A model generated the notes under the pieces. It was not told the DNA's origin, made no database searches, and worked only from the letters and a program-made list of their open reading frames with translations. From a virus, in IMG/VR virus record IMGVR_UViG_3300049434_000028, positions 38,798 through 102,797 of that record: a DNA stretch of 64,000 nt; one strand, written 5' to 3'. Position 1 is the stretch's first letter; each line of letters opens with the position of its first letter. A program made the position numbers and the translations under genes. Positions 3,161-64,000 of this stretch are shown here, piece after piece.

Positions 3161-3739
3161 TTACTTGATCGTCGGTGCGTCTGAGGTGTACGGGTCGGCC
3201 GCGTAGCTCGGCTTCCATCCCTCGTGCTGGATGACCATCTGTTCCATGAGGATGCCGTTGCCACCGGCATCGAGGTCGCTAAAGCTGATGCTGCCCGGCC
3301 AGGCGTTGTAGACCTTGAACCGCAGCTTCACCGGCACCTTGTTGTTCAGGGTGTACGGGTGGGCGAGCACCGAGATGTCGATGTTCGACCGGAAGTCCTT
3401 GCCCTTCTTGGGCGCGTACGAGCCACCGCCCTGGATGACCGAGAAGATCTCGCGCACCCACTCGTACGCATGCGGGGTGTTCACCATGACGCCGCGGGAC
3501 AGCGTGATCGGCGTGAACTCCGACTGCCCCGGCATCTTCTGGGGCGTCAGGTTGTAGCCACCCTGGCGATACGCGATGACCTGCGTCTCGACGTTCAGTC
3601 CGGCACAATTCATGAAGCCCAGCTCAATGAGCTTCCTGTTGCCACCGGCAGTGACGTGGTTGATGTTGACTATGAAGCGGAAGTTGCGCAGCGGATCGGT
3701 CGCGATCGAAGACCGCGAGTCCTTGACTGTCTCTGGCAT
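3161..3739 (-). CDS. Tail tube protein (T4 gp19-like)
   Basis: DPLRNFRF, GF..CAGL, YRQGG, KMPGQSEFTPITLSRG, YNAWP; start MPETV overlaps the sheath stop. Confidence 0.9.
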   Translation of the reverse strand: MPETVKDSRSSIATDPLRNFRFIVNINHVTAGGNRKLIELGFMNCAGLNVETQVIAYRQGGYNLTPQKMPGQSEFTPITLSRGVMVNTPHAYEWVREIFSVIQGGGSYAPKKGKDFRSNIDISVLAHPYTLNNKVPVKLRFKVYNAWPGSISFSDLDAGGNGILMEQMVIQHEGWKPSYAADPYTSDAPTIK

Positions 3740-5286
3740 TAGACCTCCTCGTTGACGGTGGAGCCGGACTCGAACTGACCGATCTTCAAGACGATGAACT
3801 CGGCGGGAGTCTCCAGAGCCACGCCGACCTCGATGTGCACCTCGCCGTTGTTCACAGCGTTCTGCGCGTTGGTGTCCTCGTCGCACTTGACGTAGAACGC
3901 CTCCTCCGCAGTAGTTCCACGAAGAGCGCCGTCCTGCCACAGCTCCAGCAGAACGCGCGAGCAGACATCCTCCAACGAAGCCCAAAGCTGCTCGTCGTTG
4001 GACTCGAACGCTGCGAATCGCGTGGCGTTGGTGAGCGCCATGCGCAGCGCGATCAGCGTGCGCCGAACGCTGACGTACTTGTCGATCTGATTGAGCTTTA
4101 GCGTGCGCGCACCAAAGATGCAGAGCCCGTTGCCGGGGACCGACTTGATGACGTTGACCTTGCCCATGTTGAGGGAGTCCATCTCAGACTCCAACGCCCG
4201 GTACTCTAGGGCCACGACGCCGTTGAGGCGGTTGTTGATCCCCGCCGGAGCCTTGTGCGTCCCGCGCTGGGTATCCGTGGCGACGTACTGCCCGACGACC
4301 GCGCCGCCAGGCGGGATGAGTCGCGTGCTGCCCGGCACCGTGTTGCTCGGGTCGCTGATCGCGAGCTGCGGGTAGTACACCGCTGCGTAGCTGCTGCTTG
4401 TGTACGCCGCCGCGGTGGTGATGAGCTGTGCAGGAGTCTGTGCAACGGCGCAGTCGACGACCAGGAAGCAGGTCCCGCGCGTCTCGCAGAAGGTGATCAT
4501 TGCGTTGACCGTGGCCGTGTCGACAACGCCGGGGATATTGATCGTGAGGAAGTCGTCCACGAGCGCCAGCGTGGCCGCCGCGTTGTACAGCTCGCTACCG
4601 GCTCCGACGGTCGGGGCCGCACCATCCGCACCGGAGGTGAGCACCTCACCGCCAGCCGGGGACACCGCGGGGACGATCGTGCCCGCAACGTAGGTGGCGG
4701 AACTCAGGTTGGTCAGCCTGATGTACACGCTACCGGTGGTGGGGGAGTTCAACAGCGCGGGCGCATACCGCCCATCGGTCGGGTCCATCGACAGGTCGGT
4801 CCAACGCTCAACGATGAACTGGTCGCCGGAGCCACCCAGACGCACCGTCAGATTGAACCGGCCGGGGAGGCTCGACCCCACGTCGGAGATCTCGGTGTAG
4901 ATCACGTTGCCCCAGGCACCAGGGTTCAGCGCATCGACCCGCAACAGCGGCGCCGGGGTGCCCGCACGGTCGTTGTAGGTGCGCGTCGCCACGACCGCAC
5001 CGGCACCGACTGCACGCACGATGTAGGCGGCTTGCCCGCCGTTGTTGTAGTACTGGAACACCGCGTGCGCCAGTGCCTGGTTGGCTCCGGCGAACCCGCC
5101 GTAGAGCTTCACGAACTGGCCCCACGAATTGATCAGCGTCGGCAGGCCGAGGATCGTGCCCGGCTGCACCGGTCCGCGGGTGGATACACCGACGAACGCG
5201 GCGACGGTGATCGCAGGGAAGGAATCGGGCGTGGTCTGGAGGAGGGACTCCTCCACATACACGCCTGGGCGCTTGTATGTCGCCAT
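3739..5286 (-). CDS. Tail sheath protein
   Basis: RPGVYVEE N-terminus, HKAPAG, FGARTL, YVSVRR, AFYVKCD, PAEFIV. Confidence 0.95.
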   Translation of the reverse strand: MATYKRPGVYVEESLLQTTPDSFPAITVAAFVGVSTRGPVQPGTILGLPTLINSWGQFVKLYGGFAGANQALAHAVFQYYNNGGQAAYIVRAVGAGAVVATRTYNDRAGTPAPLLRVDALNPGAWGNVIYTEISDVGSSLPGRFNLTVRLGGSGDQFIVERWTDLSMDPTDGRYAPALLNSPTTGSVYIRLTNLSSATYVAGTIVPAVSPAGGEVLTSGADGAAPTVGAGSELYNAAATLALVDDFLTINIPGVVDTATVNAMITFCETRGTCFLVVDCAVAQTPAQLITTAAAYTSSSYAAVYYPQLAISDPSNTVPGSTRLIPPGGAVVGQYVATDTQRGTHKAPAGINNRLNGVVALEYRALESEMDSLNMGKVNVIKSVPGNGLCIFGARTLKLNQIDKYVSVRRTLIALRMALTNATRFAAFESNDEQLWASLEDVCSRVLLELWQDGALRGTTAEEAFYVKCDEDTNAQNAVNNGEVHIEVGVALETPAEFIVLKIGQFESGSTVNEEV

Positions 5287-6590: not shown

Positions 6591-6998
6591 TCAGGCGCGC
6601 TTGCGCGGGTACGCGCGGACGACGGGCTCGCCCTTACGCCAGGCAGCTTCCTTATGCAAGCCAGGCTGCTGACTCGCGAGCTTGCCAACGGCGGCCCTGG
6701 CGTCGGGGGACATGTCGTCACGGTGATGCAGGAAGGGCATGCCGGTCTCCTTGTGCACGCCCTCGTAGAGCGCGGCGGCCACACCCTGACGCCGATGCTC
6801 GGGATCCACGGCAACGTACTCCACGCCGACGTGACCTTTCTGCTCGGGAGTCATGAACCTCTGGCTGCGGTCGAACCGCATCGTGCCGATAACGTCACCG
6901 GTCTCCGGGTGCCGAGCCGTGGCCAGCTCACCGCCCCAGGGGTGCGGGCCCTCCATCGCGACCTGCCACTGCCTACCAAGGTTGTCGGAAGCGCTCAC
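6591..6998 (-). CDS. GNAT-family acetyltransferase with N-terminal DNLGRQW tag
   Basis: VEYVAVDPEHRRQGVAAALY = GNAT motif A. Confidence 0.8.
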   Translation of the reverse strand: MSASDNLGRQWQVAMEGPHPWGGELATARHPETGDVIGTMRFDRSQRFMTPEQKGHVGVEYVAVDPEHRRQGVAAALYEGVHKETGMPFLHHRDDMSPDARAAVGKLASQQPGLHKEAAWRKGEPVVRAYPRKRA

Positions 6999-7306
6999 TT
7001 CCAGCCGAGCTTCCCGGTGAGGAACTCCATGCCGTGCTTCTTGGCCGCCGTCATCGTCTTGAACGGCGGGGGCGTGTACCGGATCTCCTTCGCGGTACCG
7101 TCCGGGCCCTGGTACCTGCCGATCATGTGGAACTCTCCTGGACCCTTACGCGCGACGGACACCTCGTGCGACTTGGGATCCCAGCCATTCGGACCCAGCC
7201 GCCGGTCGGCCCACTCCGGGCTGTCCTTGCCCCACATCGGCTCTTCCTGACGCCAATCGGTGATCTTCGGCTGGAACTGCTCGCCCAGGTGCTCGTCCGC
7301 GCTCAC
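6995..7306 (-). CDS. Hypothetical protein with N-terminal DEHLGEQF tag
   Basis: GTGA overlaps with neighbours on both sides. Confidence 0.6.
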   Translation of the reverse strand: MSADEHLGEQFQPKITDWRQEEPMWGKDSPEWADRRLGPNGWDPKSHEVSVARKGPGEFHMIGRYQGPDGTAKEIRYTPPPFKTMTAAKKHGMEFLTGKLGWK

Positions 7307-7437
7307 GGCGTGCTCGGGCTCTCAATCGCCCGCACGGGCGTCTTGGCCAGGCTGCGCTGGTACAGGACCATGCTGCGGTTGGCCTTGTACACGTCCGGGC
7401 CGAACTGCTGAGGCTGGAGGTTGTCCGCTGCTGCCAT
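7303..7437 (-). CDS. 44-aa peptide MAAADNLQPQQF..., leaderless (not in ORF track)
   Basis: Manual translation; TACGCT 7 nt upstream of the ATG; stop overlaps the next start. Confidence 0.6.
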   Translation of the reverse strand: MAAADNLQPQQFGPDVYKANRSMVLYQRSLAKTPVRAIESPSTP

Positions 7438-7526
7438 GCCGCTCAGCGTAACGGCGCGAAGGCCTGCGGTGGGAGAGTCCCGGCGTTACCCTGCAGGCAC
7501 CGGACCACTACGACACGGAGCACCCC

Positions 7527-7781
7527 ATGAGCCACTACTGCGATGGCAGCTGCACGCACGAGAGCGAGCGCTTCTATAGAGACGCCAACCGCGGGCTGAA
7601 CAGCATCGGCATGCTGCTATGGATCGCCTTCGGACTGTTCTGCTTATGGACGGCATGCGTCACAGGGTCGATGCTCATCGCGCCCGAGCCGGGCGTCAAC
7701 CCGATCAGCTCGCTCATCATCACGCTGTTCTTCGCGTGCATGACCTGGGGCTCATTCCGTGTGGTACTCCGCAGGCGCTGA
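7527..7781 (+). CDS. Small two-TM membrane protein on the opposite strand
   Basis: Two hydrophobic segments; own TACCCT -10 (7487-7492) and GGAG RBS. Confidence 0.6.
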   Translation: MSHYCDGSCTHESERFYRDANRGLNSIGMLLWIAFGLFCLWTACVTGSMLIAPEPGVNPISSLIITLFFACMTWGSFRVVLRRR

Positions 7782-19930: not shown

Positions 19931-20917
19931 TCAGTTGGTCTCGCAGATCACGACGGAGTTGTCCGTAATCAGGCCAAATCCCCATATTGCATACCAGGCT
20001 AGGGCGTGCTCCCTGCCAAAATCGAGGATACCGCCATCTCTCAATTCGACAGGAAGCGAGATCGCGTGACCGAACGCATTGTCGCCCATGAAGATCGCCT
20101 GGTAGACATCGGACGCCGAGCCGCCAGCACCAACCAGCTTCTTGACCTGAGTGGTCTCGATGAAGACGACGTCCGCGATCCGGCCGATCTCGCCGAGCAT
20201 GAAGTTGCCGGGGGCCGCGTACTTCGTGACCTCGATGAACTCGGGGTCGTCACGCAGCTTGCGCGACTGGTGCGGGTGCACGAACGCGACGTAGGTCTCG
20301 CCGAGACGCGGGACATTCTTGGTCGCGAGGGTCTCCACGGCGTCCTTGATGGACGAGACGCGGAGCACGTACGCACCGGTCATCGCTGCACGGTTGGCAG
20401 CAACGGTGCCGTCGTCGTACGGCGAAGTCGGGGTGATCGCGCCGGTCGGGGGGAGGTAACCGAAGATGACCGACGTCGCCGTCAGGATCGTGTCGCGGGC
20501 CGAGCCGTCCAGGTACAGGGCCATGTTGCGGCCGAGCAGCCGGGAGGCCGACGCCATGACGTCGTCGAACGAAGCGTTGAGCAGCAGCTCGGAGACCGCG
20601 ATTGCATAGCCCTGCTCCGCGACGGTGATCTGATACTGCGACGCCGACAGCGCGTTGGTCTGCATGCGCACACCCTCAACGAGCTGCGAGGCAGCGCCGA
20701 GGTTGTTGTACCGCATGAAGTTGACCGTGAGACCGGGCTGCACGCCCAGCTCGGTCTTCTTGACCGCGAACTGCTCGAATCGCAGGATCGGCATGCTCTG
20801 GAACAAGATCTCCTTGCTCCAGATGCTCTGGATTGCCGCAGAGAGCTGCGCGTTCGCACCGGCATACGCGGTCGGACTCGCACTCAGGAACGGCGTACCG
20901 GTGATGGCTGATGCCAC
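19931..20917 (-). CDS. Major capsid protein (N4-gp56 family)
   Basis: WSKEILFQ..LRFEQFA, L.EGV, VHPHQ..LRDDPEF, GEIG, DFGRE. Confidence 0.92.
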   Translation of the reverse strand: MASAITGTPFLSASPTAYAGANAQLSAAIQSIWSKEILFQSMPILRFEQFAVKKTELGVQPGLTVNFMRYNNLGAASQLVEGVRMQTNALSASQYQITVAEQGYAIAVSELLLNASFDDVMASASRLLGRNMALYLDGSARDTILTATSVIFGYLPPTGAITPTSPYDDGTVAANRAAMTGAYVLRVSSIKDAVETLATKNVPRLGETYVAFVHPHQSRKLRDDPEFIEVTKYAAPGNFMLGEIGRIADVVFIETTQVKKLVGAGGSASDVYQAIFMGDNAFGHAISLPVELRDGGILDFGREHALAWYAIWGFGLITDNSVVICETN

Positions 20918-20989: not shown

Positions 20990-21847
20990 TTACCGCCCAC
21001 GTACTTGCTGACTTGCCGCTTCCAGCAGCCTGCCCCGGTTCTTCATGTACGTCGCCATGTCCATGTTGCTGATCTGCTCAGCAGTAAACGTTTCCTGTCC
21101 CGACTGGTTCTCCATTGGCCCAACTGGTGGTGCTGTCACCCCGGTGCCGCGAGCCTGCTGGCGTGCCTGCTGGTACGCACTCGCCTGCTCCTGCTGCGCC
21201 TGGGTGACCTGGCTGAGGATATTGCCCGTCGTCTCGATTGCGCGAGAGACGTTGGCGTCGATCTCTTCTATCGAGTTACCCGCTACCCAGGAATGCAGCT
21301 CCGGCATGATGTTGTCGCTCTCCTCCGCGAGCCGCCGTGCACGGTGCTCATTGAGGAGCTGGAACTGCCGCTCGCGTTCCAGCAGGGCGTCGCGCTGCGC
21401 AATCTGCGACTGCAGGTCCGACATCTGCGCGCTCCAGGCCTGCTGCGTCTCCTCCAGCTTCTGCTCGAAGCTGAGGTTCTTGACGCGCTCGGCCTCGGCC
21501 GCTGCCTCGGCATCCTTGCGCGCCTTCTCCTCCGCGGCCAGCCGGGCCTGGGTGTCGGCCTCGATCTTCTTGAGCCGCTCCTCCTGCTCCGTGATCTTGC
21601 CGTAGAGCTTGTCCTTCTCCTGCTTGCGCGCGGCCTCGATGTCGGCAGCCGTGAAGGTCTGGACGCCGCCGTTCTGCTGCGTCGGCGGGGGCTCGACCGG
21701 CACCGGTACCGGGAGCGGCGGGACTGTGATCGTGTTGCCCGCGGGCTCATTGCCGCCGCTGGCCCCGGCGATCGGGAAGATCGGCGTGCCGTTCTTGCGG
21801 TACCCGAGCACCTCGCGGGGGCCATGGGTAAGGATTCTGGGTCGCAT
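20990..21847 (-). CDS. Scaffolding protein
   Basis: FT.ADIE.ARKQEKDKLY coiled coil; C-terminal MDMATY.KNR; directly upstream of the MCP. Confidence 0.8.
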   Translation of the reverse strand: MRPRILTHGPREVLGYRKNGTPIFPIAGASGGNEPAGNTITVPPLPVPVPVEPPPTQQNGGVQTFTAADIEAARKQEKDKLYGKITEQEERLKKIEADTQARLAAEEKARKDAEAAAEAERVKNLSFEQKLEETQQAWSAQMSDLQSQIAQRDALLERERQFQLLNEHRARRLAEESDNIMPELHSWVAGNSIEEIDANVSRAIETTGNILSQVTQAQQEQASAYQQARQQARGTGVTAPPVGPMENQSGQETFTAEQISNMDMATYMKNRGRLLEAASQQVRGR

Positions 21848-21934
21848 GTATCCGTCCTTCGCGTGTCCGTAGGCCCTGACGGGCCGAGCAGTGGCATGCA
21901 CGCTAGCTGGACGGCACGCAAGGGTGTGCGAGGG

Positions 21935-22656: not shown

Positions 22657-24369
22657 CTAATCGTTGTCGTCGTTAGCAGGGTTGCGCCGCTGCGAGAGCT
22701 TTGTGCCATAGGCGCGCGTGTTGAGCTGATTGACCATCTCGCCCACCTCAGGCGGGAGCGCAACCGGCTGGGTGACCGCCGGAGCCCCACCGCCTGCACC
22801 CCCGCCCGCGGTGCTGACACCAGCGCCGCCCGCACTGGTGACATCCGGCTGCGGCCCGTCCGGGCTGGGAAGCATGCCCGTCTCCGACAACACCGCTGCC
22901 GAGATCTGACTCTTCAACATATCGAGCGCGCCCTGGTCAATCGCGTCCTCGACCAACTCCAAGAAGATCTCCCGGCTCTTGTTATCGGGGAACTCCTCGC
23001 CCAGCTCGCGCAGCGCGCCGCGCTTGGACTCCAGACCGAGCGCCATCTTCATCTGCACCTCGTTGAGCTTGATGAGGATGTCGACGGGCAGCGGCGGCGG
23101 CCAGTGGCATTCGGTCTGGTAGGTGACCGGGTCGTCCGGGTCCAGTACCGGGAGCTGACCATCCTTCAGTTCGTCGCTCTCGCTGGGATCCCACTGGAAC
23201 GTGAGCGGTTCCTTGACGGCCAGCGTGCGCAGGATCAGCTCGTTGACGCGTCGGATGCCCTGCCCGTAGTTCGTCGTCTTCTGCCGGTAGCGCTGCATCA
23301 TCGGCGTGTACTGGATCGCCAGCGCGACGCCGGAGGTGTTGCTGATCGGCTGCACGTCGCCGAGCGCACCCTCGGGAACACCGGTCAACTCGTGCATGCT
23401 CTTCTTCAGCATCGCGAGGTAGTCCATGGGGCCGCCGAGGTTCGCGCCCAGCTCCAGGTTGAATACCTGCGCGTCCTTCGGCAGTCCGCCCCAAACCTTC
23501 TTGGGGCCCTTCTCCAACTGCGACGCCTTCGCTCCGGTGATCACCGTCACGGGCGCAGCGTGGTAGTTGATGATGTCCGAGACGTCGGTGGCCTTCTCGT
23601 TGTACTCGCGGTTCAGCGAGATGATGCCGCCGATGTCCGAGAGCCCCCACGGCGAGCCGGAGACCTTGGTGTTGGGGATGTGCACGACGGGGATGACGCC
23701 CAGCGGGTTCGGGCGCGCATCGAGCAGCTCGTCGTTGATGTACTCCTCGATCTGAGTGTCCGTCAGGATCTCGGTATAGGTGAAAACCTGACGCGTACCG
23801 TCCGCCGTCGTGCCCCAGAACTTGTACTTGAGCTTGAAGCGCAGGAGTCGGTTGCGGTCATGCGGATGGAACTCGGGGAAGGCATGCGCGCCGTTGATCG
23901 GAAGGACACGCACGCGACCGGCGTGGAACCCACCGGCCGGGTCCACCCACGGCTCCTCGTACGCGACCTTGATGAAGCAGTCGCCGGAGACACCACCGAG
24001 CTGGCCCAGCTCCAGCAGCAGCGACTCCTTGTCGTTGTCGACCTCCCACACGCGCGAGAGCAACGACGGCACGATCGCCGACGTCGCGAGCGGCGTGCGG
24101 AAGTAGACCCCGCGGCCGAAGCAGAAGTTGTTGATGAACGACGCGAAAGCCTCGACGTAGTTGAACGTGAGCTGGGGCTCGCCCATCTCCCGCCGATGAC
24201 TCCAGTGATGACCGAGGAACCAGGCCCAGTTCTGCGCGTACCGGTTGAGCCGCGGGCCGTGTACCTCGAACTCCTCATCGGCCAGCTCTACCAGGCCGAG
24301 CGGAGAGATCGAGACCGTGAGGTCACCGGAGGACGCACGGAAGGACGGCGAGACGAAGTCGACGCTCAC
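22657..24369 (-). CDS. Portal protein
   Basis: IPVVHIPN..G.SDI..I..LN.EYN; SNTSGVAL; size and position. Confidence 0.9.
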   Translation of the reverse strand: MSVDFVSPSFRASSGDLTVSISPLGLVELADEEFEVHGPRLNRYAQNWAWFLGHHWSHRREMGEPQLTFNYVEAFASFINNFCFGRGVYFRTPLATSAIVPSLLSRVWEVDNDKESLLLELGQLGGVSGDCFIKVAYEEPWVDPAGGFHAGRVRVLPINGAHAFPEFHPHDRNRLLRFKLKYKFWGTTADGTRQVFTYTEILTDTQIEEYINDELLDARPNPLGVIPVVHIPNTKVSGSPWGLSDIGGIISLNREYNEKATDVSDIINYHAAPVTVITGAKASQLEKGPKKVWGGLPKDAQVFNLELGANLGGPMDYLAMLKKSMHELTGVPEGALGDVQPISNTSGVALAIQYTPMMQRYRQKTTNYGQGIRRVNELILRTLAVKEPLTFQWDPSESDELKDGQLPVLDPDDPVTYQTECHWPPPLPVDILIKLNEVQMKMALGLESKRGALRELGEEFPDNKSREIFLELVEDAIDQGALDMLKSQISAAVLSETGMLPSPDGPQPDVTSAGGAGVSTAGGGAGGGAPAVTQPVALPPEVGEMVNQLNTRAYGTKLSQRRNPANDDND

Positions 24370-26095: not shown

Positions 26096-26854
26096 TTAGA
26101 GCATCTTCGCGCCGGGGAACTGGCTGGAATGGAACTCCCGCGCCTGCGCCAGCGCACCGGAGTGGAACGCGGCGGTACGGCGACCAACGAGAGGCGTGAT
26201 CGGCTGCGCCAGGTGTGCGGGTAGCAAAGCCACCTTCTGCGCCTGGAAGTTGCCCCCGCCGCCCGCGCTGATGAACGCGCTGTTCTGCCCGCGGGTCTCG
26301 GTGGCCATGGCACGGCGCGCGGTCGGGGAGTACATGCTGCTGTGCATCTGGAACGCCGCCTCCTCGCCGTGGCGGTCGAACCCGCGGCCGGTGCCGCCGT
26401 GGCCGAAGGCGTCGTGCACGGCGCGGAACTGGTCGTTCTGCAGGTTGGAGAAGTACGGGTGGCTGCCGCTGGCGGCCGTGGAGTAGACCTCCAGGTGCTT
26501 GTTCTCGTGCAGGTCGCGCATCATGTCGGCCGGGCCCTTGTAGGGGTCCTTCGTGCTGACATCCACCTGCACGCCGAGCCCACCGCGCCGGACCGGCTTG
26601 GTGAGGTGGTCGAACTGCTTCTCGGTCTCGTGCGCCATCGCCTTGAAGTGGGGGACTGCCCGCTCGTCGAAGTCCGGCAGCGCCCCGTACGCCTGCGCAG
26701 CGGCCTTAGTGACGTCCGGGTGCGCGACGACGGAGCGGAAGGTGCTCACGTCCGGCCGAGCCAACCCCTGGCGCGCGGCGTAGTCGCGAGCGCCCATGGC
26801 GATGTGCGGGTTGACCTGCCCGGCCCCGCCGAAGAAATGTGCGGTGCGGCTCAC
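26096..26854 (-). CDS. HDxxGH putative metal-binding domain of the type seen in phage polyvalent proteins
   Basis: NDQFRAVHDAFGH..F.RHGEEAA..H..MYS..AR.AMATETRGQNS. Confidence 0.6.
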   Translation of the reverse strand: MSRTAHFFGGAGQVNPHIAMGARDYAARQGLARPDVSTFRSVVAHPDVTKAAAQAYGALPDFDERAVPHFKAMAHETEKQFDHLTKPVRRGGLGVQVDVSTKDPYKGPADMMRDLHENKHLEVYSTAASGSHPYFSNLQNDQFRAVHDAFGHGGTGRGFDRHGEEAAFQMHSSMYSPTARRAMATETRGQNSAFISAGGGGNFQAQKVALLPAHLAQPITPLVGRRTAAFHSGALAQAREFHSSQFPGAKML

Positions 26855-27765
26855 TGAACGACTCCTGACGGGAAGTGGTTGAAGCGCGGACTCGTAGAGG
26901 CCGATCTCTGCAGCCCACGCTGAGCCAGGAATCTCTCCCCGCCACGCTCCTTGCGCCGCTGCGCCTCCTCGTGACCAGGGACCTGCCGCTCCAGGTGATC
27001 GGGTGCGTCGTTGGCGTAACTCCAGTGGTGCTCGCCATTCCCGCTCGCGAAGCGCGCCAGCAGCTCCGTCTGCTGCCCCTGCGCCGGGGTAGACCGCCGG
27101 TCCCGCCAGTTCGAGTGCTCTGGTGCTCCTGCTGCGCGCATCGTCCTGAACGTCCGACGGAAGTCGTTGCTGGCTGCGGGCGACTCCTCCTTCCCGGCCC
27201 ACCCTTCCGGCCCACGGTCGATCTGCACCGGCTTGACGCGCCGATCACGGAAGTGAGTCTCCGCGTAATTCTCGGCAAAGCCCTCTTCAGCCCCTCGCGT
27301 GGTCGGCGTGTTGTAGGCCGAGTGCTCGCTCTGGTCGATACGTGCGCTGACGTGGTGCCCGATCTCATGGATCGTCGTCGTGCTCGCAGCCCTGCCAGGC
27401 GCGATGCGCATCAACCCGAGCGCCCGACCCTGCTTCTGGTAGTCGCCCGAACGGCCATCGCCCACTGCGGTAACGGCCGAGTCGTGGTAGTTGGCGTAGA
27501 GCCCATCGAGATGCGATGCAGGAACGGTGCTCCGCGCGATCGTCTCCACTCCCCTGCGCGCTTCCTCACTGATAGCCCCACGGCCGGATGGCCATCCGCT
27601 CGTCGGGCCGGTGACCTCGTCACGTCGCTGCGGGGAGTACCCCCGAGGCCAGGGCTTCCCGGTGGCCGGAGTCGGGTTGCCTCCCTGGAACAACGTCCCC
27701 TGACTGTTCGCAGACGCTTTCATGTTCGTGTGCATGCGAAACTGAGCACCCGTCAGCGCAACCAT
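26851..27765 (-). CDS. HExxH metallopeptidase, paralog C
   Basis: TTTIHEIGHHVS..EEGFAENYAE. Confidence 0.7.
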   Translation of the reverse strand: MVALTGAQFRMHTNMKASANSQGTLFQGGNPTPATGKPWPRGYSPQRRDEVTGPTSGWPSGRGAISEEARRGVETIARSTVPASHLDGLYANYHDSAVTAVGDGRSGDYQKQGRALGLMRIAPGRAASTTTIHEIGHHVSARIDQSEHSAYNTPTTRGAEEGFAENYAETHFRDRRVKPVQIDRGPEGWAGKEESPAASNDFRRTFRTMRAAGAPEHSNWRDRRSTPAQGQQTELLARFASGNGEHHWSYANDAPDHLERQVPGHEEAQRRKERGGERFLAQRGLQRSASTSPRFNHFPSGVVQ

Positions 27766-28736
27766 CAGCCGAATCCCTGCTCGTGCTCTTCGTGATAAAG
27801 CGAGCGCCACTCCCGACGCTTGGGGGTGTTCCCATCCTCGTGCCACTCGGTGGTGTCCTGAGCGAGCATCGGAATCTGGCCGCGCATCCCGGTGGGGTGC
27901 AGATCCTGCTGGTCGATCTTCGCCAGCGAAGCCTTGTGCGCGAGCGATGACGGCGAGTGTTCGGCCTGGTGCCCGTAGAACCCGCGGTGGAACGCACGCC
28001 GAGGGTCGTCATCCGAGAAGGTGTAAGGCTTCTCAGGCCCCGGCATCCCGTAGTGCCCGTGCCACTTCTCAGGCGAGGTGGAGAAGTTCGTCAGAGGACG
28101 CCCGCGGTGATCCCGGTAGTGAGTCTCGGCGTAGGACTCGGCGAACGACTCCTCCTGCCCAGACGCCTCAAGGTCGTCGTGATCGCGCAACGTCTTTGAA
28201 TGCGGCGTACCGAGCAGATTGCTTACGTGGTGCCCTACCTCATGAATCGTCGTGGTGCCATCAGCGTGACTGGCGCGTACGGTGATCGAAGGGCTCCACG
28301 CACCGCTGCCGGACTTGTAGTGCCCGGCCGTGTTCTTGCTGATCTGGTTGTCCTGAATCTGGAAGTAGTAGCTCGCACCACGTATGTGGTCGGTAGGAAC
28401 AGTGCTGCGCGCGAGATTGGCCACTGCCTTAGAGGTACCCTCGCGGCCGGTGCGCTCCTCCTCCGGGTACGTCTTGAAATCACGAGCAGCAGCAACCTGC
28501 GCGCTGGGCTTGCCCTTGTTCCCGCCCAGATAGGAACGGACCGTAACGCCGGAAGTCTTGTCACCCGAATCCATGGCGTCGACAACCGCATCACGGCGCT
28601 CCGGGCTGTACCCGCGCGGCCACGGCTGCCCGGCTCCGGCGCGAGGATGCCCGCCCTGGAACAGCGTGCCCTGGGAGTTGGGGGCGGCCTTGATGTTCGT
28701 CTGCATCCGCCACTGCTTGCCAACCAGATCAGCCAT
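27765..28736 (-). CDS. HExxH metallopeptidase, paralog B
   Basis: TTTIHEVGHHVS..EESFAESYAE. Confidence 0.7.
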   Translation of the reverse strand: MADLVGKQWRMQTNIKAAPNSQGTLFQGGHPRAGAGQPWPRGYSPERRDAVVDAMDSGDKTSGVTVRSYLGGNKGKPSAQVAAARDFKTYPEEERTGREGTSKAVANLARSTVPTDHIRGASYYFQIQDNQISKNTAGHYKSGSGAWSPSITVRASHADGTTTIHEVGHHVSNLLGTPHSKTLRDHDDLEASGQEESFAESYAETHYRDHRGRPLTNFSTSPEKWHGHYGMPGPEKPYTFSDDDPRRAFHRGFYGHQAEHSPSSLAHKASLAKIDQQDLHPTGMRGQIPMLAQDTTEWHEDGNTPKRREWRSLYHEEHEQGFG

Positions 28737-29541
28737 CGCCAAGCCTCCGCGCCAGACCGCCCTGCGCGACTGCCTTGGTCGACTTGCGCCCACGCAGCTC
28801 CAGCCCTACGTCGAACAGCGCGGGCTGCGCGCCCCGAGCGGCGTACGACGCGGAGGCCTTGGCCTGGCGTTCGGCGCTCGGCGAACCCACACGCTCCTTC
28901 TCGAAGTTCTTCGCGAACGTCTTGCTGGCGGCGTCGCCCATGTTGTTGGACCAGCGCAGCGGGTTGGTGGAGAAGTCGGGGCTCGGCCGCCCGCGGCGAT
29001 CCCGCCAGTTGCGCTCGGCGAAGTTCTCAGCGAAGCCCTCATCCGCGCCCTTGCGCGCCACGGTGTTGTACTCCGAGGAGGCGCGGCCGGTGATCCGGCT
29101 GACGTGGTGGCCGATCTCGTGGATGGGGGTCGTGGTGCCCTCCTGGCCAGGTGCGACCGTGACGCGCGAGAACGGGTGCTCCGTCCAGGTGGCCTGGTCC
29201 ATCCGGCGGCCGTGCTGGTACATGCCGCCGATCTGCAGCCCCGCGGCCATCCCGCGCTTGCGGCCCATGCCGGTGTCGGCGGGCTTGAACTCCAGGTCCG
29301 TCAGCCGGTTCGCCGGAGCCGTGCTGCGAGCGACGTTCTCGATGATCGCGCGCGTCTGCGGAGAGTCGCGCATTGCTGCACGCGTGCTCGGGTGAATCGA
29401 GTTGAGCACGTCGCGCTGGCGCTCGGGCGTGTACCCGCGCGGGTAACGCTGCGCGTTGTTGCCCTGGAAGAGCGTCCCCTGGCTGTTCGGGGCCGCCTTC
29501 ATGTTGGTCTGCATGCGGAACTGCTGCCCGTTCAGCGTCAT
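28729..29541 (-). CDS. HExxH metallopeptidase, paralog A
   Basis: TTPIHEIGHHVS..DEGFAENFAE. Confidence 0.7.
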   Translation of the reverse strand: MTLNGQQFRMQTNMKAAPNSQGTLFQGNNAQRYPRGYTPERQRDVLNSIHPSTRAAMRDSPQTRAIIENVARSTAPANRLTDLEFKPADTGMGRKRGMAAGLQIGGMYQHGRRMDQATWTEHPFSRVTVAPGQEGTTTPIHEIGHHVSRITGRASSEYNTVARKGADEGFAENFAERNWRDRRGRPSPDFSTNPLRWSNNMGDAASKTFAKNFEKERVGSPSAERQAKASASYAARGAQPALFDVGLELRGRKSTKAVAQGGLARRLGDG

Positions 29542-31112
29542 CGCGCGCTCCGCTGGTAGAACGGCGAGTGGGTCTGCTCCACCTCGGCCATGGTCCAGTC
29601 TTTCGTGAGGTAACAGCCGATCGCGAGAGAGTCCGGGTAGTCGTCGTGGGCCTCGGCCTCCTCTGGCGCGGCGGCCAGCAGGAACTTCCCCTGGTACTTC
29701 TTCTCCAAGTCCTTCATCTGGCCCTCGAACCGGCGCCAGGTGCGCAGACGGCGGGTCTTGGCGTGCCCCGGCCAGGACACCATCCCGCGACCGATCAGCT
29801 CCGAAAGGTGCTTCCAGCGCGCCGACTGCTCGGAGCTGGACGAGCCCATCGCCACTACCTCCAGCTCGGGCATGAGGCGCGCCAGGCGGTCCGCCACGAC
29901 GTCACCGATGCCCTGCGCGTCGATGCCGAGCTTCACACCGCTGTACGCGCGGCAGAAGTCGACGATCTTGCCGTACTGCTCCTCCCACTGGTCTCCGTGG
30001 ATCTCCAGCCAGTTCAGGACGCGGTGGTCGTAGTAGCCGAACTCATCCGGCCGCGACCAATCCACCCAGATCGCGGTGAGCACCGTGGAGTCCAGCTTGC
30101 GCGCGACGTCGAGACCGAACACGATCGGCGTGCCGTGGTAGCTCTTGACTATCTCCATCGACTTATCTGACAGTTCGTCAATTCGTTCCTCTGTCGTGAA
30201 CATGCCTCGATCGAGCAGCCACTTCAGGCAGTACGACATCTGGAACTCGTCGCTGTCCGCGCCGATGCGCGCCATCTCCTTGCGCACGAACTTCTCGTAG
30301 TTGGCGTTGTACTTGGCGCAGATCTTCCAGTCGTTCTGGAAATGACACTGCCTCGCGCCCCTGCGCGTCTGGCGTCGCTGGTTGTGCCGGATCGCCTTGT
30401 AGAAGTCCCCCTTGTGGATGTCGGGGGTGCCGGTCTTGACGATCGTGGCGTTGTAGTACGCGCCCATGGGGTGGATGCTCTTGCGAACCGTGCGCTCGTC
30501 GGCCTTCTGCGCCTCGTCGATGACGATCAGGTGGTAACTCTTCGACTCGATCGACGCCTTGGGGTTGGCGGTCTGCATACGTGCGAACGAGCCGGACTTC
30601 TTCAGCTTGATGAGCTTGCCGCCGCCCTGCACCGCGTCGTCGATCTCAGGGTCGGCCAGCATCTCCAGAGCACGATCGCTGGTCAGCCGGTTCACAATGC
30701 GCCCGTATAGCGTCTCGGCCTGGCTCTCGACGGGTGCGAACGTCCCAACCCAGAACCCGTCCACGAACTTGCCCAGCCAGATCGGGAAGATGCGCGCCAG
30801 CTTCGGCAGCAGGATCATCAGGGCCGCGACTACGTTCGCGATCGTCTCAGTCTTGCCGCTCTGGCGCGAGAACAGCGCCGTCAGCTCCTCGCCGTCGTTG
30901 ATGACGACGCTCTCGATGCACCGGTAGGCGAACTCGCGCTGGTACGGGTGCAAGGCGTGCCCGGCCAGCTCGTCCACGAAGATCAGAATCTTGGTGACGA
31001 GCTGATGGACGAAGTCCGAGTCCTCCTCGGACAGCTCTACGACGTCCTCGTCAAGAGGCACCCCCTCGTCGTCCAGAAGAGGTGCCTCGACGTCATCGAG
31101 CAGAGTGGTCAT
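29538..31112 (-). CDS. terL: Terminase large subunit
   Basis: LHPYQ, SRQSGKT (Walker A), LIVIDEAQ (Walker B), TGTP, GLDVAR..DST, HDDYPDS. Confidence 0.95.
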   Translation of the reverse strand: MTTLLDDVEAPLLDDEGVPLDEDVVELSEEDSDFVHQLVTKILIFVDELAGHALHPYQREFAYRCIESVVINDGEELTALFSRQSGKTETIANVVAALMILLPKLARIFPIWLGKFVDGFWVGTFAPVESQAETLYGRIVNRLTSDRALEMLADPEIDDAVQGGGKLIKLKKSGSFARMQTANPKASIESKSYHLIVIDEAQKADERTVRKSIHPMGAYYNATIVKTGTPDIHKGDFYKAIRHNQRRQTRRGARQCHFQNDWKICAKYNANYEKFVRKEMARIGADSDEFQMSYCLKWLLDRGMFTTEERIDELSDKSMEIVKSYHGTPIVFGLDVARKLDSTVLTAIWVDWSRPDEFGYYDHRVLNWLEIHGDQWEEQYGKIVDFCRAYSGVKLGIDAQGIGDVVADRLARLMPELEVVAMGSSSSEQSARWKHLSELIGRGMVSWPGHAKTRRLRTWRRFEGQMKDLEKKYQGKFLLAAAPEEAEAHDDYPDSLAIGCYLTKDWTMAEVEQTHSPFYQRSAR

Positions 31113-51357: not shown

Positions 51358-51395
51358 GTCGTGCCCCTTGTCCTGGCCCAATGGTGCAGCCCAGG

Positions 51396-58358: not shown

Positions 58359-58871
58359 TCACAGATTCCTAAGCCGAGGAGTCGCCCTGGTGAGCGACGC
58401 TGGTCCGGTGCCACGTTCAGGGCCGTAGCCGCCCTCGATCAGCCGTGCGTGCAGTTCCTTGCCCTGCAGCAACGCTGCAGCCGCGCGGTGGTGCCCTGAC
58501 AGGATGATGTCCTGAGAGGCCGCGCCGTCCAATCCTGCCCGACGGTAGACGACAGGGTGGGCGTTTCCGGCCATGTGCTGGTCCGCGCTCGTCCGGCCGT
58601 GCAGCTCGTACTCGTCGCCCAGGTAGTGCTGAACGTGCTGGCGCAGGATGCTCGGCTGGGTGGCGTGCAGGCCGCGGGGGTCCACCGGGCGCAGCGCCAA
58701 CTCGTTGGGGGGCTTGCTCAGCTCGCCGTGCACGAGCCCGCGGTCGTAGTCCTCACGGTCCTTGCGGCGGCCCATCTGCGGCCACGGCACCATCGTCGTC
58801 GGCGCGCCGTCCGGGAACATGCGGTCGATGTGCTCCTTGCCCGCACCGTAGAACTGCTCGGCCCTGCTCAT
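58359..58871 (-). CDS. ParB/Srx-like N-terminal-domain protein
   Basis: L.ATQ..P.V....ILSGHHRAAAA.L.G. Confidence 0.7.
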   Translation of the reverse strand: MSRAEQFYGAGKEHIDRMFPDGAPTTMVPWPQMGRRKDREDYDRGLVHGELSKPPNELALRPVDPRGLHATQPSILRQHVQHYLGDEYELHGRTSADQHMAGNAHPVVYRRAGLDGAASQDIILSGHHRAAAALLQGKELHARLIEGGYGPERGTGPASLTRATPRLRNL

Positions 58872-59107
58872 ACCGTCATCCCTCCGCTGCCGACACCTGC
58901 ATCGCCGCCGTCCGCACCAGGCTGGGGCTGATCGCCGGAGCCAGGATCGCCCTGGCTGAAGCCGCTGACCCACTGCTGGCCGTTGAGCATGTCCTGGGCG
59001 GTGACGTCGAGGTTGTACGGCGACCACCAGCCGCCGAAGCTGGCGCGGCGGTGGTCGTGACGATGATGCCCGTCATCGGGCAGCACGTTCCCCACTCCAG
59101 TGCTCAT
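58868..59107 (-). CDS. Small protein with internal LNGQQW, leaderless
   Basis: TACGCT-N6-ATG; ATGA-coupled to the ParB-like gene. Confidence 0.5.
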   Translation of the reverse strand: MSTGVGNVLPDDGHHRHDHRRASFGGWWSPYNLDVTAQDMLNGQQWVSGFSQGDPGSGDQPQPGADGGDAGVGSGGMTV

Positions 59108-59122: not shown

Positions 59123-59350
59123 CTAAGAGCGCGGAACGGACTCGATACCGTGGAGCACGCACGCGCCCGGCACCGTGCAGAGCACGAGGTTGACCGGGCT
59201 GTTGGTGAAGGTAGGGCTGAACCAGCCGTCGTTGCTGTCCTGGTCCGGCGGGGGGTTGTTGGCCACGGCCGCCGCAGCGGCGCCGGGGGTGAGCAGGATC
59301 ATCGCGATGACCATCGTGGCCAGCTTCATTCCGGTCTCCTCATGCTTCAT
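59123..59350 (-). CDS. Small secreted protein
   Basis: Signal-peptide-like N-terminus ending AAAA; two Cys. Confidence 0.5.
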   Translation of the reverse strand: MKHEETGMKLATMVIAMILLTPGAAAAAVANNPPPDQDSNDGWFSPTFTNSPVNLVLCTVPGACVLHGIESVPRS

Positions 59351-62849: not shown

Positions 62850-63101
62850 CTACATCCAGGACGTGGCGGGACGCGAGGTGCCGGAGTAGCCGGGCTCCGC
62901 GTAACCACTCACACGCCCGCGGGCGTCCGGGTAGAGCCGGTTGGTGCCGAGCACGTCCATGATGGTCGGCACCATCGACGGGTTGCCGAGCCGCGGTGGG
63001 AACAGCACCGCCTGGCGCACGGGTGGGAACGGGTAGTCAGGCAGCGGGAGCGGCGGGAACCCCGTCGCGCCACCGCGCTTGTAGACGCTGTCGGATTCCA
63101 T
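62850..63101 (-). CDS. Pro-rich small protein
   Basis: Coupled to the upstream gene. Confidence 0.5.
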   Translation of the reverse strand: MESDSVYKRGGATGFPPLPLPDYPFPPVRQAVLFPPRLGNPSMVPTIMDVLGTNRLYPDARGRVSGYAEPGYSGTSRPATSWM

Positions 63102-64000
63102 CAGGCTCCGGCCCGACGTCGGATAGGCGCGCCCTTACCGAGCGGCAGACTGAACTGGGTGGCATTGAGATTGGTGTTGGTCCGCTTGCTCTCCTTGGCG
63201 GATGCCGCCAGTGCCTGGCTGTGCTCAGGATCCTTCCCCGCCTCAATGCGCCCCTGCGTCCACGCAACCTCCTGGACGGCCACGGCGGGGATCTTGTACC
63301 CAAGGTCGTGCTGGCCGGACACTCTCTTCGCCGCGCGAATGGTCGCCTCGTTGTTGTAGGCGTGCTGCAGGGCGACCACACCGACGCGCGAATCCGGGTG
63401 GATCCGATTGCCACGCCCGCCCGTGGTCTCCACCGAGGCCAGCGGACCTACCGTCTTGGCGACGTTGGCACGATCGACGGTGGTCAGCGGCTGGCCGGTG
63501 GTGAAGGCCTGCTGCCAGGTGTCCTCGGTGGTGGGGCCCTTGGACGCGAGCAGCCCACTCTCGCTGTGCCGCATTCCGACCAGGTCAAGGACGCCCTGAC
63601 CCTCATGCTGTAGGCCCCTGGCCACGTCGGCGTGGTGGCCGACGCGGGTCATGTACTCGGTGTGCTCGGCGCTGCCAGGAACGGCGCGCAGGATGTTGCC
63701 GCGGTAGGAGTGCACCTTTGGGCTGTCGTACGGACTGATGGCGGTAGCAGTGGGCTGCGTGCCGCGAAGCACGTTGATCGCCTTGGAGATGTTCTCCTTG
63801 GGCCCGCCCTTGGTGATCCCCAGGAAGTCGATCCCGCTGTGCACAACGTGCGGCGAGATGTTGGTGGTCGAAAGGTGCGCCAGATGCTCGGGAGCCAAGT
63901 CGGCGACCTTGACCTTCTTATCGTTACCGACCTGATGGGCAGGCACCGCAATACCGGACGCCTTGGATACCGCCCTCGCGACAGCCGGGCTCATCGTGAC
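63101..64000 (-). CDS. 5'-truncated protein with KVxSYxxNI..D.W..QxxAW domain (DUF7178/HhH-like)
   Basis: PKVHSYRGNI, TEDTW, AVQEVAW; frame open to the window edge; C-terminal NLNATQFSLPL. Confidence 0.55.
   Translation of the reverse strand, partial: VTMSPAVARAVSKASGIAVPAHQVGNDKKVKVADLAPEHLAHLSTTNISPHVVHSGIDFLGITKGGPKENISKAINVLRGTQPTATAISPYDSPKVHSYRGNILRAVPGSAEHTEYMTRVGHHADVARGLQHEGQGVLDLVGMRHSESGLLASKGPTTEDTWQQAFTTGQPLTTVDRANVAKTVGPLASVETTGGRGNRIHPDSRVGVVALQHAYNNEATIRAAKRVSGQHDLGYKIPAVAVQEVAWTQGRIEAGKDPEHSQALAASAKESKRTNTNLNATQFSLPLGKGAPIRRRAGA

What the first reader, a model, noticed from the sequence alone, without database searches (positions are those of the whole stretch)
6591..7437. 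Shared L-x(2,3)-Q-[FW] tag on unrelated proteins: candidate capsid-cargo addressing system
Seen: three coupled genes inserted between the fibre and neck genes begin MAAADNLQPQQF (44 aa, little beyond the tag), MSADEHLGEQF and MSASDNLGRQW (GNAT), and are unrelated after the tag. The same motif opens the three peptidases next to terL (MTLNGQQF, MADLVGKQW, MVALTGAQF). It also occurs in 58868..59107 (MLNGQQW) and near the C-terminus of 63101..64000 (NLNATQF). That gives 8 proteins in about 6 unrelated families. Known: T4 internal proteins use a ~10-aa N-terminal capsid-targeting sequence. Inference: this is a portable tag that loads diverse effectors (acetyltransferase, proteases, DNA-binding domain) into the head for co-injection with the DNA.
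Basis: partly seen in the sequence, partly recalled or inferred. Interest (0 to 1): 0.85.

Follow-up and report, generated by a model that had tools for sequence, protein, structure and literature searches.

The report
Shared N-terminal leader on phage effectors
A soil actinobacterial phage and its uncultured relatives put the same roughly 11-residue peptide at the very start of dozens of unrelated enzyme-like proteins, which looks like a sorting label (perhaps for loading them into the virus particle) that has not been described before.

Summary
Six window genes start with L-x(2,3)-Q-[FW]. They fall into 4 families: a 44-aa ORF, a 103-aa ORFan, a GNAT, and three paralogous HExxH zincin peptidases. 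The other two cited sites (58868.., 63101..) are internal and at background frequency.

In IMG/VR and metagenome relatives with the same major capsid protein (72-81% identity), I found 68 distinct proteins in about 25 sequence clusters. All open with M-S-H-[RE]-A-L-[NS]-[GP]-[EQ]-Q-F. Arrays reach 11 consecutive tagged genes.

- In six-frame scans, 47 of 48 strict matches directly follow a start codon (background 4.6%).
- Codons vary synonymously, so selection acts on the peptide.
- Bodies include zincin peptidases, GNATs, two kinds of ADP-ribosyltransferase, ParB-like domains and zinc ribbons. This matches the repertoire of injected "polyvalent" phage effectors.
- Two complete close relatives lack the leader altogether.
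- Cultured mycobacteriophage orthologues of one cargo lack exactly the leader.

Function is inferred, not shown. I favour virion loading with or without cleavage after Q-F (about 0.45). The rivals are a processing leader and a docking or degron peptide. No cultured leader-bearing phage or virion proteome was found. I found no published description.

The parts
7303..7437 (-). 44-aa ORF consisting of the leader (codons 7402-7437, MAAADNLQPQQF) plus a 32-aa tail
   Evidence: Near-identical leaders head different proteins in G006 (MAASDHLSPRQF) and L039 (MAASDSLSPQQF).
6995..7306 (-). 103-aa ORFan with the leader (7274-7306, MSADEHLGEQF). Its GTG start overlaps the upstream stop codon (GTGA).
   Evidence: There is no real homologue among 1.84 billion representatives and no Pfam or PHROG hit.
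6591..6998 (-). 135-aa GNAT acetyltransferase with the leader (6966-6998, MSASDNLGRQW). GTGA-coupled to the upstream gene.
   Evidence: PF00583 at 30.6 bits against a cut-off of 20.7. It is a divergent member (29-37% identity) of a GNAT family in which all 7 aligned members from different phages keep the leader.
28729..29541 (-). HExxH zincin peptidase paralog A (270 aa). Leader at 29518-29541 (MTLNGQQF), followed by a disordered tail that carries SQGTLF.
   Evidence: AF2 gives pLDDT 85, with residues 1-30 lacking secondary structure and at pLDDT 56-60. The best structural matches are thermolysin-type zincins, Z 7.9.
27765..28736 (-). HExxH zincin peptidase paralog B (323 aa). Leader at 28710-28736 (MADLVGKQW).
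26851..27765 (-). HExxH zincin peptidase paralog C (304 aa). Leader at 27739-27765 (MVALTGAQF).
58868..59095 (-). 75-aa ORF with an internal MLNGQQW at residues 36-42. Not counted as a tag.
   Evidence: GC3 is 0.89 in frame upstream of the internal ATG. Internal motif frequency equals that of leader-free relatives.
63101..63994 (-). 297-aa ORF with NLNATQF at residues 275-281, near the C-terminus. Not counted as a tag.

Best explanation
The motif is a portable leader peptide that sits strictly at the N-terminus. Its lineage consensus is M-S-H-[RE]-A-L-[NS]-[GP]-[EQ]-Q-F. The window's variants are M-[SA]-A-x-[DE]-[NH]-L-x(2,3)-Q-[FW] and the short form M-x(1,2)-L-x-G-x-Q-[FW]. It has been attached by domain shuffling to many unrelated, mostly host-directed enzymes of one lineage of roughly 100-kb actinobacterial myoviruses.

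SHOWN
- It is selected at the peptide level.
- It occurs only directly after the start codon.
- It persists on orthologues that have diverged to about 30% identity.
- It is absent as a class from some close relatives.
- It is missing from orthologous cargo in unrelated cultured phages.

INFERRED
- It gives these proteins a common fate. The most likely fate is recruitment into the assembling virion (head interior or portal/tail channel), so that peptidases, acetyltransferases, ADP-ribosyltransferases and ParB-like proteins enter the next host with the DNA.
- The two hydrophobic anchors (L, F), separated by a G/P turn, would dock in a conserved virion component.
- The sharp end of conservation at Q-F may mark a cleavage point.
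For: SPECIFICITY
- 47 of 48 six-frame matches to the strict core directly follow ATG, GTG or TTG; the 48th follows two codons downstream. Background is 4.6%.
- N-terminal enrichment is 8.8-fold over internal positions across 9 genomes. Complete relatives G002 and G003 have none.
- An unsupervised comparison of N-termini recovers the tag as the top signal in G000 and G008 and finds nothing comparable in G002 or G003.

PEPTIDE, NOT DNA
- Wobble positions vary freely.

PORTABILITY
- 68 proteins fall in 25 blastp clusters.
- Arrays reach 7-8 tagged genes in L135 and L137 and 11 in L147.
- Murphy gp127 starts MS-DYRG. Its tagged orthologues start MSHEALGEQF-EDYRG.

CARGO TYPE
- Zincin: invariant H141, E142, H145 and E168; fold matches.
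- GNAT.
- ADP-ribosyltransferase: PF03496 at 3.9e-9; an Arr-like hit at 1e-4.
- ParB C-terminal domain: phrog_2579 at 5e-31.
- This is the domain set that PMC5512222 assigns to capsid-packaged, injected polyvalent proteins.

CONTEXT
- All six window genes lie inside late structural operons, between terL and portal and between fibre and neck.
- Other relatives also carry tagged genes in the fibre-neck slot (L002, L005, L008, L132, L136).
- The peptidase N-terminal 30 residues are modelled without secondary structure.
- Many tags are followed by Pro-rich linkers.
Against: - No virion proteomics exists. The cultured relatives BRock and GiJojo lack the tag in the half of the genome I examined.
- The largest arrays lie next to a dpdA-like gene (phrog_887), away from the structural genes, so late expression is not general.
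- No structural gene co-varies with tag presence. The window's MCP and portal are closer to those of leader-free relatives.
- No prohead protease was recognised, and the residue after F is not conserved. Cleavage is therefore speculative.
- In the GNAT, the tag abuts the fold with no linker. A low-confidence model (pLDDT 65) makes it a helix.
- A second short motif, QG[KRT]LF, resembles a sliding-clamp-binding peptide. It could point to a cytoplasmic docking role instead.
Confidence: 0.45

Rival explanations
1. Processing or activation leader. The peptide is a pro-sequence recognised by a protease and removed after Q-F. The best candidate protease is the co-occurring HExxH zincin family. The leader would control when the effectors become active, as bacteriocin double-glycine leaders do, or as the Prp-cleaved leaders of phage 80alpha capsid proteins do. 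Packaging is not implied.
For: - The HExxH family is the only window gene family present in every clearly tag-bearing genome (G006-G010) and absent from G001-G003.
- In L005, L008, L010 and L011 the peptidase gene sits between portal and scaffold, the usual slot of a prohead protease.
- Conservation stops exactly at Q-F.
- The position is strictly N-terminal.
Against: - G001 has three tag-like small genes but no HExxH homologue, even in a six-frame search.
- No P1' preference exists.
- Untagged family members keep the aromatic residue as M-S-W, which argues against it being discarded.
- No Prp homologue is present in the phage.
- The paper's list of phyla with long L27 does not include actinobacteria (PMC9405229).
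Confidence: 0.2
2. Cytoplasmic docking or degron peptide. The leader binds one hub protein inside the infected cell, such as a replisome or sliding-clamp component, RNA polymerase, a Clp-type unfoldase or a phage chaperone/immunity protein. This would concentrate, silence or time-limit the effectors.
For: - The big arrays lie with DNA-modification and replication-type genes (dpdA-like gene, ParB-like genes, a WhiB-like ORF in L137 read by eye) rather than with virion genes.
- The cargo family of Murphy gp127 sits in a block of small hypothetical genes next to replication and recombination genes, away from structural genes, in cultured mycobacteriophages.
- Many tagged proteins also carry QG[KRT]LF. 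This fits the Q-x-x-L-F clamp-binding pattern and often lies at the extreme C-terminus.
Against: - A generic docking motif need not sit at residue 1, yet 48 of 48 strict matches do.
- All six window copies are embedded in late structural operons.
- No candidate hub gene co-varies with the tag.
Confidence: 0.25
3. No function of its own. The similarity is chance, a remnant of serial duplication, or a nucleic-acid signal (translation initiation region, recombination handle) that happens to be translated.
For: - The motif is short.
- The looser form is also over-represented internally (25 observed against 7.9 expected).
- CAG-TTC is nearly constant.
Against: - The start-codon association cannot be chance (47 of 48 against 4.6%).
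- Distinct folds behind the tag (zincin, GNAT, ART, ParB-like, zinc ribbon) exclude common descent of the bodies.
- Wobble positions of Ser, His, Ala and Leu vary.
- The tag is retained where the body has fallen to about 30% identity.
Confidence: 0.03

Closest known systems
T4 capsid targeting sequence (CTS) of internal proteins IPI-III (the ADP-ribosyltransferase Alt is likewise packaged and injected)
   Same: A peptide of about 10 residues at the extreme N-terminus is shared by unrelated proteins, including an ADP-ribosyltransferase. These proteins are made for the next infection, and the genes lie among late genes (background: PMC3012670, PMC9958956, PMC5512222).
   Different: - No sequence relationship.
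- No gp21-type prohead protease or L/I-x-E site was recognised here.
- The host is an actinobacterium and the capsid lineage is different.
- The scale is far larger (up to 11 tagged genes in one array, about 25 cargo clusters).
- Packaging is untested.
N-terminal signal peptides of extracellular contractile injection system payloads (PVC, Afp18 NtSP)
   Same: An N-terminal leader on diverse toxins or effectors loads them into a contractile, phage-tail-like particle. The leader can be transferred to foreign cargo (PMC11495950; 10.1101/2023.11.13.566157).
   Different: This one is 8-12 residues with a sharp consensus.
- eCIS loading uses a dedicated AAA ATPase (Pvc15). I did not look for one here.
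- This is a DNA-containing phage whose tube holds a tape-measure protein.
Prp-cleaved N-terminal leader shared by ribosomal protein L27 and the capsid and scaffold proteins of Staphylococcus phage 80alpha
   Same: A short N-terminal motif is shared by unrelated phage proteins. It has Leu, Gln and Phe just before the boundary: MLxx(D/N)LQ(F/L)F'A(S/H)KK (PMC9405229).
   Different: - The register and following residues differ: no F-F, and no A-[SH]-K-K.
- The phage has no Prp.
- The paper's list of phyla with long L27 and Prp does not include actinobacteria.
- The tagged proteins here are accessory enzymes, not capsid or scaffold.
Polyvalent proteins and MuF-fused polymorphic toxins of phages (Iyer et al. 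2017)
   Same: The same domain repertoire (zincin MPTase, ADP-ribosyltransferase, ParB-like nuclease, acetyltransferase) is encoded near portal and terminase genes and is predicted to be packaged and injected.
   Different: There the domains are fused into one giant polypeptide or to a MuF or portal domain. Here each domain is a separate small gene that carries the same leader, like a polyvalent protein broken into separately addressed pieces.
Encapsulin cargo-loading peptides; T6SS N-terminal effector markers (MIX, RIX). Cited from my own knowledge, not checked here.
   Same: A short terminal peptide, or a marker shared by unrelated cargo, directs it to an HK97-fold shell or to a contractile injection machine.
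   Different: Different sequences. Encapsulin peptides are usually C-terminal. These are cellular systems rather than a virion.

Membership tests
T4-type capsid targeting sequence | A short peptide at the extreme N-terminus shared by otherwise unrelated proteins of one phage | tested here: met
   6 proteins in 4 families in the window; 68 proteins in 25 clusters in the lineage; 47 of 48 strict matches directly after a start codon.
T4-type capsid targeting sequence | The tagged proteins are present inside the capsid and the tag is sufficient to package foreign proteins | not testable with these tools
   No cultured tag-bearing phage was found. No proteome data are available.
T4-type capsid targeting sequence | The tag is removed by the prohead protease at a consensus site | tested here: inconclusive
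   No prohead-protease family hit in the head module. Conservation ends at Q-F, but the next residue is not conserved.
Prp/L27-type N-terminal leader | Motif MLxx(D/N)LQ(F/L)F followed by A(S/H)KK | tested here: not met
   The logo shows L-[NS]-[GP]-[EQ]-Q-F with no conserved residue after F. Motif taken from PMC9405229.
Prp/L27-type N-terminal leader | Prp cysteine protease (PF04327) available in the phage or host | tested here: not met
   No PF04327 match in the complete phage genome, while the control genomes gave matches. Host side: the Terracoccus locus indicates Actinomycetota, a phylum not in the paper's list of those with long L27. The host genome itself was not searched.
eCIS payload N-terminal signal peptide | A polar leader of 20-50 aa without a consensus, loaded by a Pvc15-type AAA ATPase | tested here: not met
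   The leader here is 8-12 aa with a strong consensus (comparison text). The presence of a Pvc15-like ATPase was not tested.
GNAT acetyltransferase (window 6591-6998) | Pfam GNAT profile above the gathering score, and an acetyl-CoA motif A (R/Q-x-x-G-x-A/G) | tested here: met
   PF00583 at 30.6 bits against a cut-off of 20.7. RRQGVAAA is conserved across the family alignment. The structural model is only pLDDT 65.
Zincin (gluzincin) metallopeptidase (window 26851-29541) | HExxH helix plus a downstream Glu as third zinc ligand | tested here: met
   H141, E142, H145 and E168 are invariant in 104 sequences.
Zincin (gluzincin) metallopeptidase (window 26851-29541) | Zincin fold | tested here: inconclusive
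   AF2 gives pLDDT 85. Nearly all of the top 30 VIA-align 2 matches are zincin peptidases: thermolysin at Z 7.9 with 155 residues aligned at 4.4 A, then LasB, M1 aminopeptidases, PPEP and lethal factor. However, Z is below 8, Foldseek found nothing at E <= 0.001, and there is no Pfam hit.
Phage polyvalent-protein effector set (Iyer 2017) | MPTase, ART and ParB-type domains encoded by a phage beside virion genes | tested here: met
   Domains. Context between terL and portal and between fibre and neck.
Phage polyvalent-protein effector set (Iyer 2017) | Several such domains fused in one polypeptide | tested here: not met
   Each tagged protein (43-333 aa) carries a single domain.

The most novel reading that the evidence does not exclude
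This lineage of actinobacterial myoviruses uses a sequence-defined protein-sorting code that depends on the start position. An 11-residue leader pre-loads a modular, rapidly shuffled set of up to 11 single-domain effectors into the virion for co-injection. The effectors include ADP-ribosyltransferases, acetyltransferases, zincin peptidases and ParB-like proteins. Outside T4, I know of no other phage packaging signal defined by a sequence consensus. It would also be a ready-made handle for loading foreign proteins into actinophage particles.
Probability: 0.4. Interest if true: 0.9.

Novelty: new variant of a known kind. Interest (0 to 1): 0.8.

Why it matters
How phages choose which non-structural proteins travel inside the particle is known at sequence level for essentially one model, the T4 CTS. 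For eCIS payloads it is known only in a looser form.

This case offers a sharply defined consensus with natural presence/absence controls. Close relatives lack it, and cultured-phage orthologues lack exactly these residues. It carries about 25 cargo families. That makes the question directly testable with tag-reporter fusions and procapsid co-expression.

It also flags dozens of small unannotated phage genes as a single functional class of candidate host-takeover or anti-defence effectors. And it shows that automated start-codon calls can hide such signals: the database GNAT starts at Met15.

If the leader turns out to be a processing, degradation or docking signal instead, it would still be a new common regulatory handle on a phage effector arsenal.

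Tried and rejected
- Chance: rejected.
- DNA or RNA motif: rejected, because wobble positions vary.
- Prp-type leader: rejected. The motif register differs and the phage has no Prp.
- MCP segment PILRFEQF-AVKK as a further tag or cleavage site: set aside. It lies at residues 43-54 of an MCP that is 74-78% identical along its whole length, including the 44 residues before it. PHROG 1357 aligns from residue 20. It is therefore just conserved MCP sequence.
- HExxH peptidase as an obligatory partner: weakened by G001, which has tags but no HExxH.
- A tag-specific receptor gene sought by presence/absence across 9 genomes: none found apart from HExxH.
- Homologues of the 135-aa protein and of the 103-aa protein (only low-complexity, repeat-type chance hits; the protein atlas gave no lead).
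- Cultured relatives: megablast and tblastn with the window region, a peptidase, the GNAT and the roughly 75-aa tagged family found nothing. GiJojo's first 50 kb has no tag and no HExxH gene in the head module.
- Single-protein locus scans failed. Alignment-based scans worked.
- Foldseek against the PDB gave no match at E <= 0.001.
- The GNAT model was too weak to place the tag.
- My simple gene caller failed on the 69% GC Terracoccus locus; I read that locus from ORF lists instead.
The closest Logan contigs (60-69% identical peptidases, P0002-P0008) could therefore not be examined.
Full report
WHAT THE WINDOW IS

The window is bases 38,798-102,797 of a complete 102,797-bp IMG/VR virus record with direct terminal repeats. 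It has 65% G+C. The gene order is that of a myovirus, all on the minus strand: terL (29538-31112), portal (22657-24369), scaffold, MCP (19931-20917), fibres, sheath (3739-5286), tube and tape measure. The only bacterial genome that held a relative of the peptidase family is Terracoccus sp., an actinobacterium. Because G+C is high, I called genes with a codon-usage model of my own.

CHECKING THE OBSERVATION

So do the three genes beside terL.
- The 135-aa protein is a GNAT: PF00583 at 30.6 bits against a cut-off of 20.7.
- The three terL-proximal proteins are paralogs (34-39% identity) with an invariant HExxH plus a downstream Glu.
- An AlphaFold model built on 104 homologues has pLDDT 85. Its best structural matches are nearly all zincin peptidases: thermolysin at Z 7.9, then LasB, M1 aminopeptidases, PPEP and lethal factor. 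Foldseek alone found nothing significant. "Peptidase" is therefore reasonable.
- The window has six N-terminal tags in four families, not eight in six.
- The motif in 58868-59095 is internal, and the upstream part is in-frame coding with GC3 0.89. The one in 63101-63994 is near the C-terminus.
- A narrower core of the motif occurs internally 10 times per 29,316 residues here. Two leader-free relatives show 8 per about 29,000. I treat both sites as background.
- Within-protein shuffles give 0.31 N-terminal hits, against 6 observed.
- The leader codons differ synonymously between copies.

THE SAME LEADER IN RELATIVES

- The peptidase family has 109 homologues in metagenomes. An alignment-based scan of IMG/VR returned 11 loci at 27-34% identity.
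- Many unrelated ORFs in these loci open with the same peptide, for example MSHEALNPEQF, MSHRALGMQF, MSQNALNPEQF, MSATALNPRQF and MSHAALSRQQF.
- The MCP is extraordinarily conserved (72-81% identity, against about 30-60% for most other genes). It retrieved at least 587 related stretches.
- A degenerate DNA pattern for the leader found further contigs. Some hold arrays of 4-8 consecutive tagged genes (L129, L134, L135, L137). L147 has 11.
- After removing duplicates and obvious false positives, I hold 68 tagged proteins of 43-333 aa in 25 blastp clusters. The logo is M-S-H-[RE]-A-L-[NS]-[GP]-[EQ]-Q-F, and nothing is conserved after F.

IS IT REALLY AN N-TERMINAL SIGNAL?

- A test independent of gene calls settles this. 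Across about 1 Mb translated in six frames, the strict core occurs 48 times. In 47 cases it directly follows ATG, GTG or TTG; in the 48th it follows two codons downstream. Start-type codons make up 4.6% of all codons.
- Wobble positions of Ser, His, Ala and Leu vary freely, so selection is on the peptide.
- In the tagged GNAT family, all seven members from different phages keep the leader although the bodies are only 29-37% identical.
- An unsupervised search for similar N-termini among non-homologous proteins returns the leader as the top signal in G000 and G008. It finds nothing comparable in G002 or G003.

NATURAL CONTROLS

- Complete relatives G002 and G003 (MCP 78-80% identical) have no tagged protein and no HExxH homologue, even in six frames.
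- G001 has three tag-like small genes but no HExxH.
- The cultured Streptomyces phages BRock and GiJojo (MCP 73%) show neither a tag nor an HExxH gene in the half of the genome that carries the structural genes.
- One cargo family, about 150 aa and matching phrog_2579 "ParB C-terminal domain" at 5e-31, has orthologues in 180 cultured Mycobacterium, Gordonia and other phage records. Murphy gp127 begins MS-DYRG, where the tagged proteins begin MSHEALGEQF-EDYRG. The leader is therefore a lineage-specific add-on to independent domains.

WHAT IS BEHIND THE LEADER

- Zincin peptidases (several per genome).
- GNATs (window; L107:7256-7702 at PF00583 1.8e-7; L007).
- An exotoxin-type ADP-ribosyltransferase (PF03496 at 3.9e-9).
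- Arr-like ADP-ribosyltransferases (PF12120 at 1e-4, below the cut-off).
- ParB-like N- and C-terminal pieces.
- Zinc-ribbon proteins, a conserved family of about 75 aa, and 43-52-aa proteins, some with acidic tails.

This is the domain repertoire that Iyer et al. assign to phage polyvalent proteins, which they predict to be packaged and injected (PMC5512222). Here, however, each domain is a separate gene.

The first 30 residues of the peptidase are modelled without secondary structure and at low confidence. Many leaders are followed by Pro-rich stretches.

MECHANISM

What is shown: a portable, peptide-level signal that sits at the start of the protein.

What is inferred: its purpose. I favour recruitment into the virion (0.45), for these reasons:
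- The cargo is of the injected-effector type.
- All six window genes sit inside late structural operons (terL to portal; fibre to neck).
- The fibre-neck slot also holds tagged genes in L002, L005, L008, L132 and L136.
- There are precedents for N-terminal packaging leaders: the T4 CTS, and eCIS payloads.

Points against:
- The largest arrays lie beside a dpdA-like gene (phrog_887), outside the structural module.
- No structural gene co-varies with the tag. The window's capsid genes are closer to those of leader-free relatives.
- There are no proteomic data.

A processing leader cut by the co-occurring zincins is the second reading (0.2). HExxH is the only family that tracks the tag, and in four loci it sits in the prohead-protease slot. 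G001, the lack of any P1' preference and the retained M-S-W in untagged members argue against it.

A cytoplasmic docking or degron peptide is the third reading (0.25).

A Prp-type leader is excluded as a membership.

A SECOND SHORT MOTIF

QG[KRT][LF]F occurs in the disordered N-tail of every HExxH protein examined. It also occurs within 45 residues after the leader in 16 of 68 tagged proteins, against a background of 0.8% of 45-aa windows. It forms the last five residues of tagged ParB-like and ART proteins, and of untagged 413-514-aa proteins, including in leader-free relatives. It could equally be a virion-docking or cleavage motif. I could not resolve this.

NOVELTY

Full-text searches for capsid-targeting, ejection-protein and injected anti-defence signals found T4, P1, SPN3US and eCIS work. 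They found nothing that describes this leader. I class it as a new variant of a known kind: N-terminal addressing leaders on phage or CIS cargo. It has an unusually sharp consensus, large gene arrays and clean natural controls.

The closest relatives in Logan assemblies could therefore not be inspected.

Noticed in passing
window 29467-29481, 28659-28673, 27688-27702, 28813-28827; L107, L115, L122, L100, L132, L045, L051: A second short motif, QG[KRT][LF]F. It lies in the disordered N-tail of every HExxH peptidase examined. It occurs within 45 aa after the leader in 16 of 68 tagged proteins (background 0.8%). It forms the last five residues of tagged ParB-like and ART proteins and of untagged 413-514-aa proteins, also in leader-free G002 and G003. 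It resembles a clamp-binding peptide, but it could be a docking or cleavage site.
   Followed up: partly
window 19931-20917 against L012-L091: The MCP is 70-81% identical across at least 587 IMG/VR stretches. Portal (56-64%), terL (53-60%), sheath (37-46%) and most other genes (about 30-40%) are far more diverged. This is an unusually constrained capsid protein.
   Followed up: partly
L135, L137, L129, L134, L147; window 49885-51381 and 59340-59846: In relatives, arrays of 4-11 tagged genes sit directly upstream of a dpdA-like gene (phrog_887, queuine tRNA-ribosyltransferase-like) and downstream of a conserved roughly 170-aa gene. The window has both flanking genes but almost no array there. 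Its tagged genes sit in the structural operons instead.
   Followed up: partly
window 20990-21901; G002 93963-94829; G003 80412-81272, 72973, 88188: The scaffold protein probably starts at an upstream ATG (MRPRILTHGPRE..., preceded by GAAGGA). In G003 the scaffold N-terminus MSLHTQG shares an LHT-x-G motif with two other proteins (MANDLHTEG, METNALHTSG). This may be another shared N-terminal motif, or chance.
   Followed up: partly
   Followed up: partly
window 6591-6998: The public protein database holds this GNAT as a 121-aa product starting at Met15. The automated start call removes the leader, so such tags are easy to miss in annotations. In Murphy, the tblastn match to the tagged orthologue begins 45 nt upstream of the annotated start of gp127, but the reading frame there contains stops.
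   Followed up: yes
L144 8731-10762 (Terracoccus sp. 273MFTsu3.1, NZ_KB911820.1): A bacterial chromosome carries three adjacent genes: a 282-aa protein starting MLNSAQF with an ALDAHHR (ParB-like) motif read by eye, a nuclease-like small gene, and an untagged-form HExxH peptidase (MTEQWNLQTN). This is probably a prophage remnant and gives a host phylum.
   Followed up: partly
window 7438-7781: A lone plus-strand 84-aa ORF with hydrophobic stretches (7527-7781) lies between the fibre gene and the tagged trio. The trio's first gene has no obvious Shine-Dalgarno sequence.
   Followed up: no
window 26096-26854: The phrog_3170 protein (252 aa) between the peptidases and the portal has 48-49% identical homologues only in relatives G001-G003 (which lack the HExxH peptidases), not in G006-G010. 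This is the opposite phyletic pattern to the HExxH peptidases.
   Followed up: no
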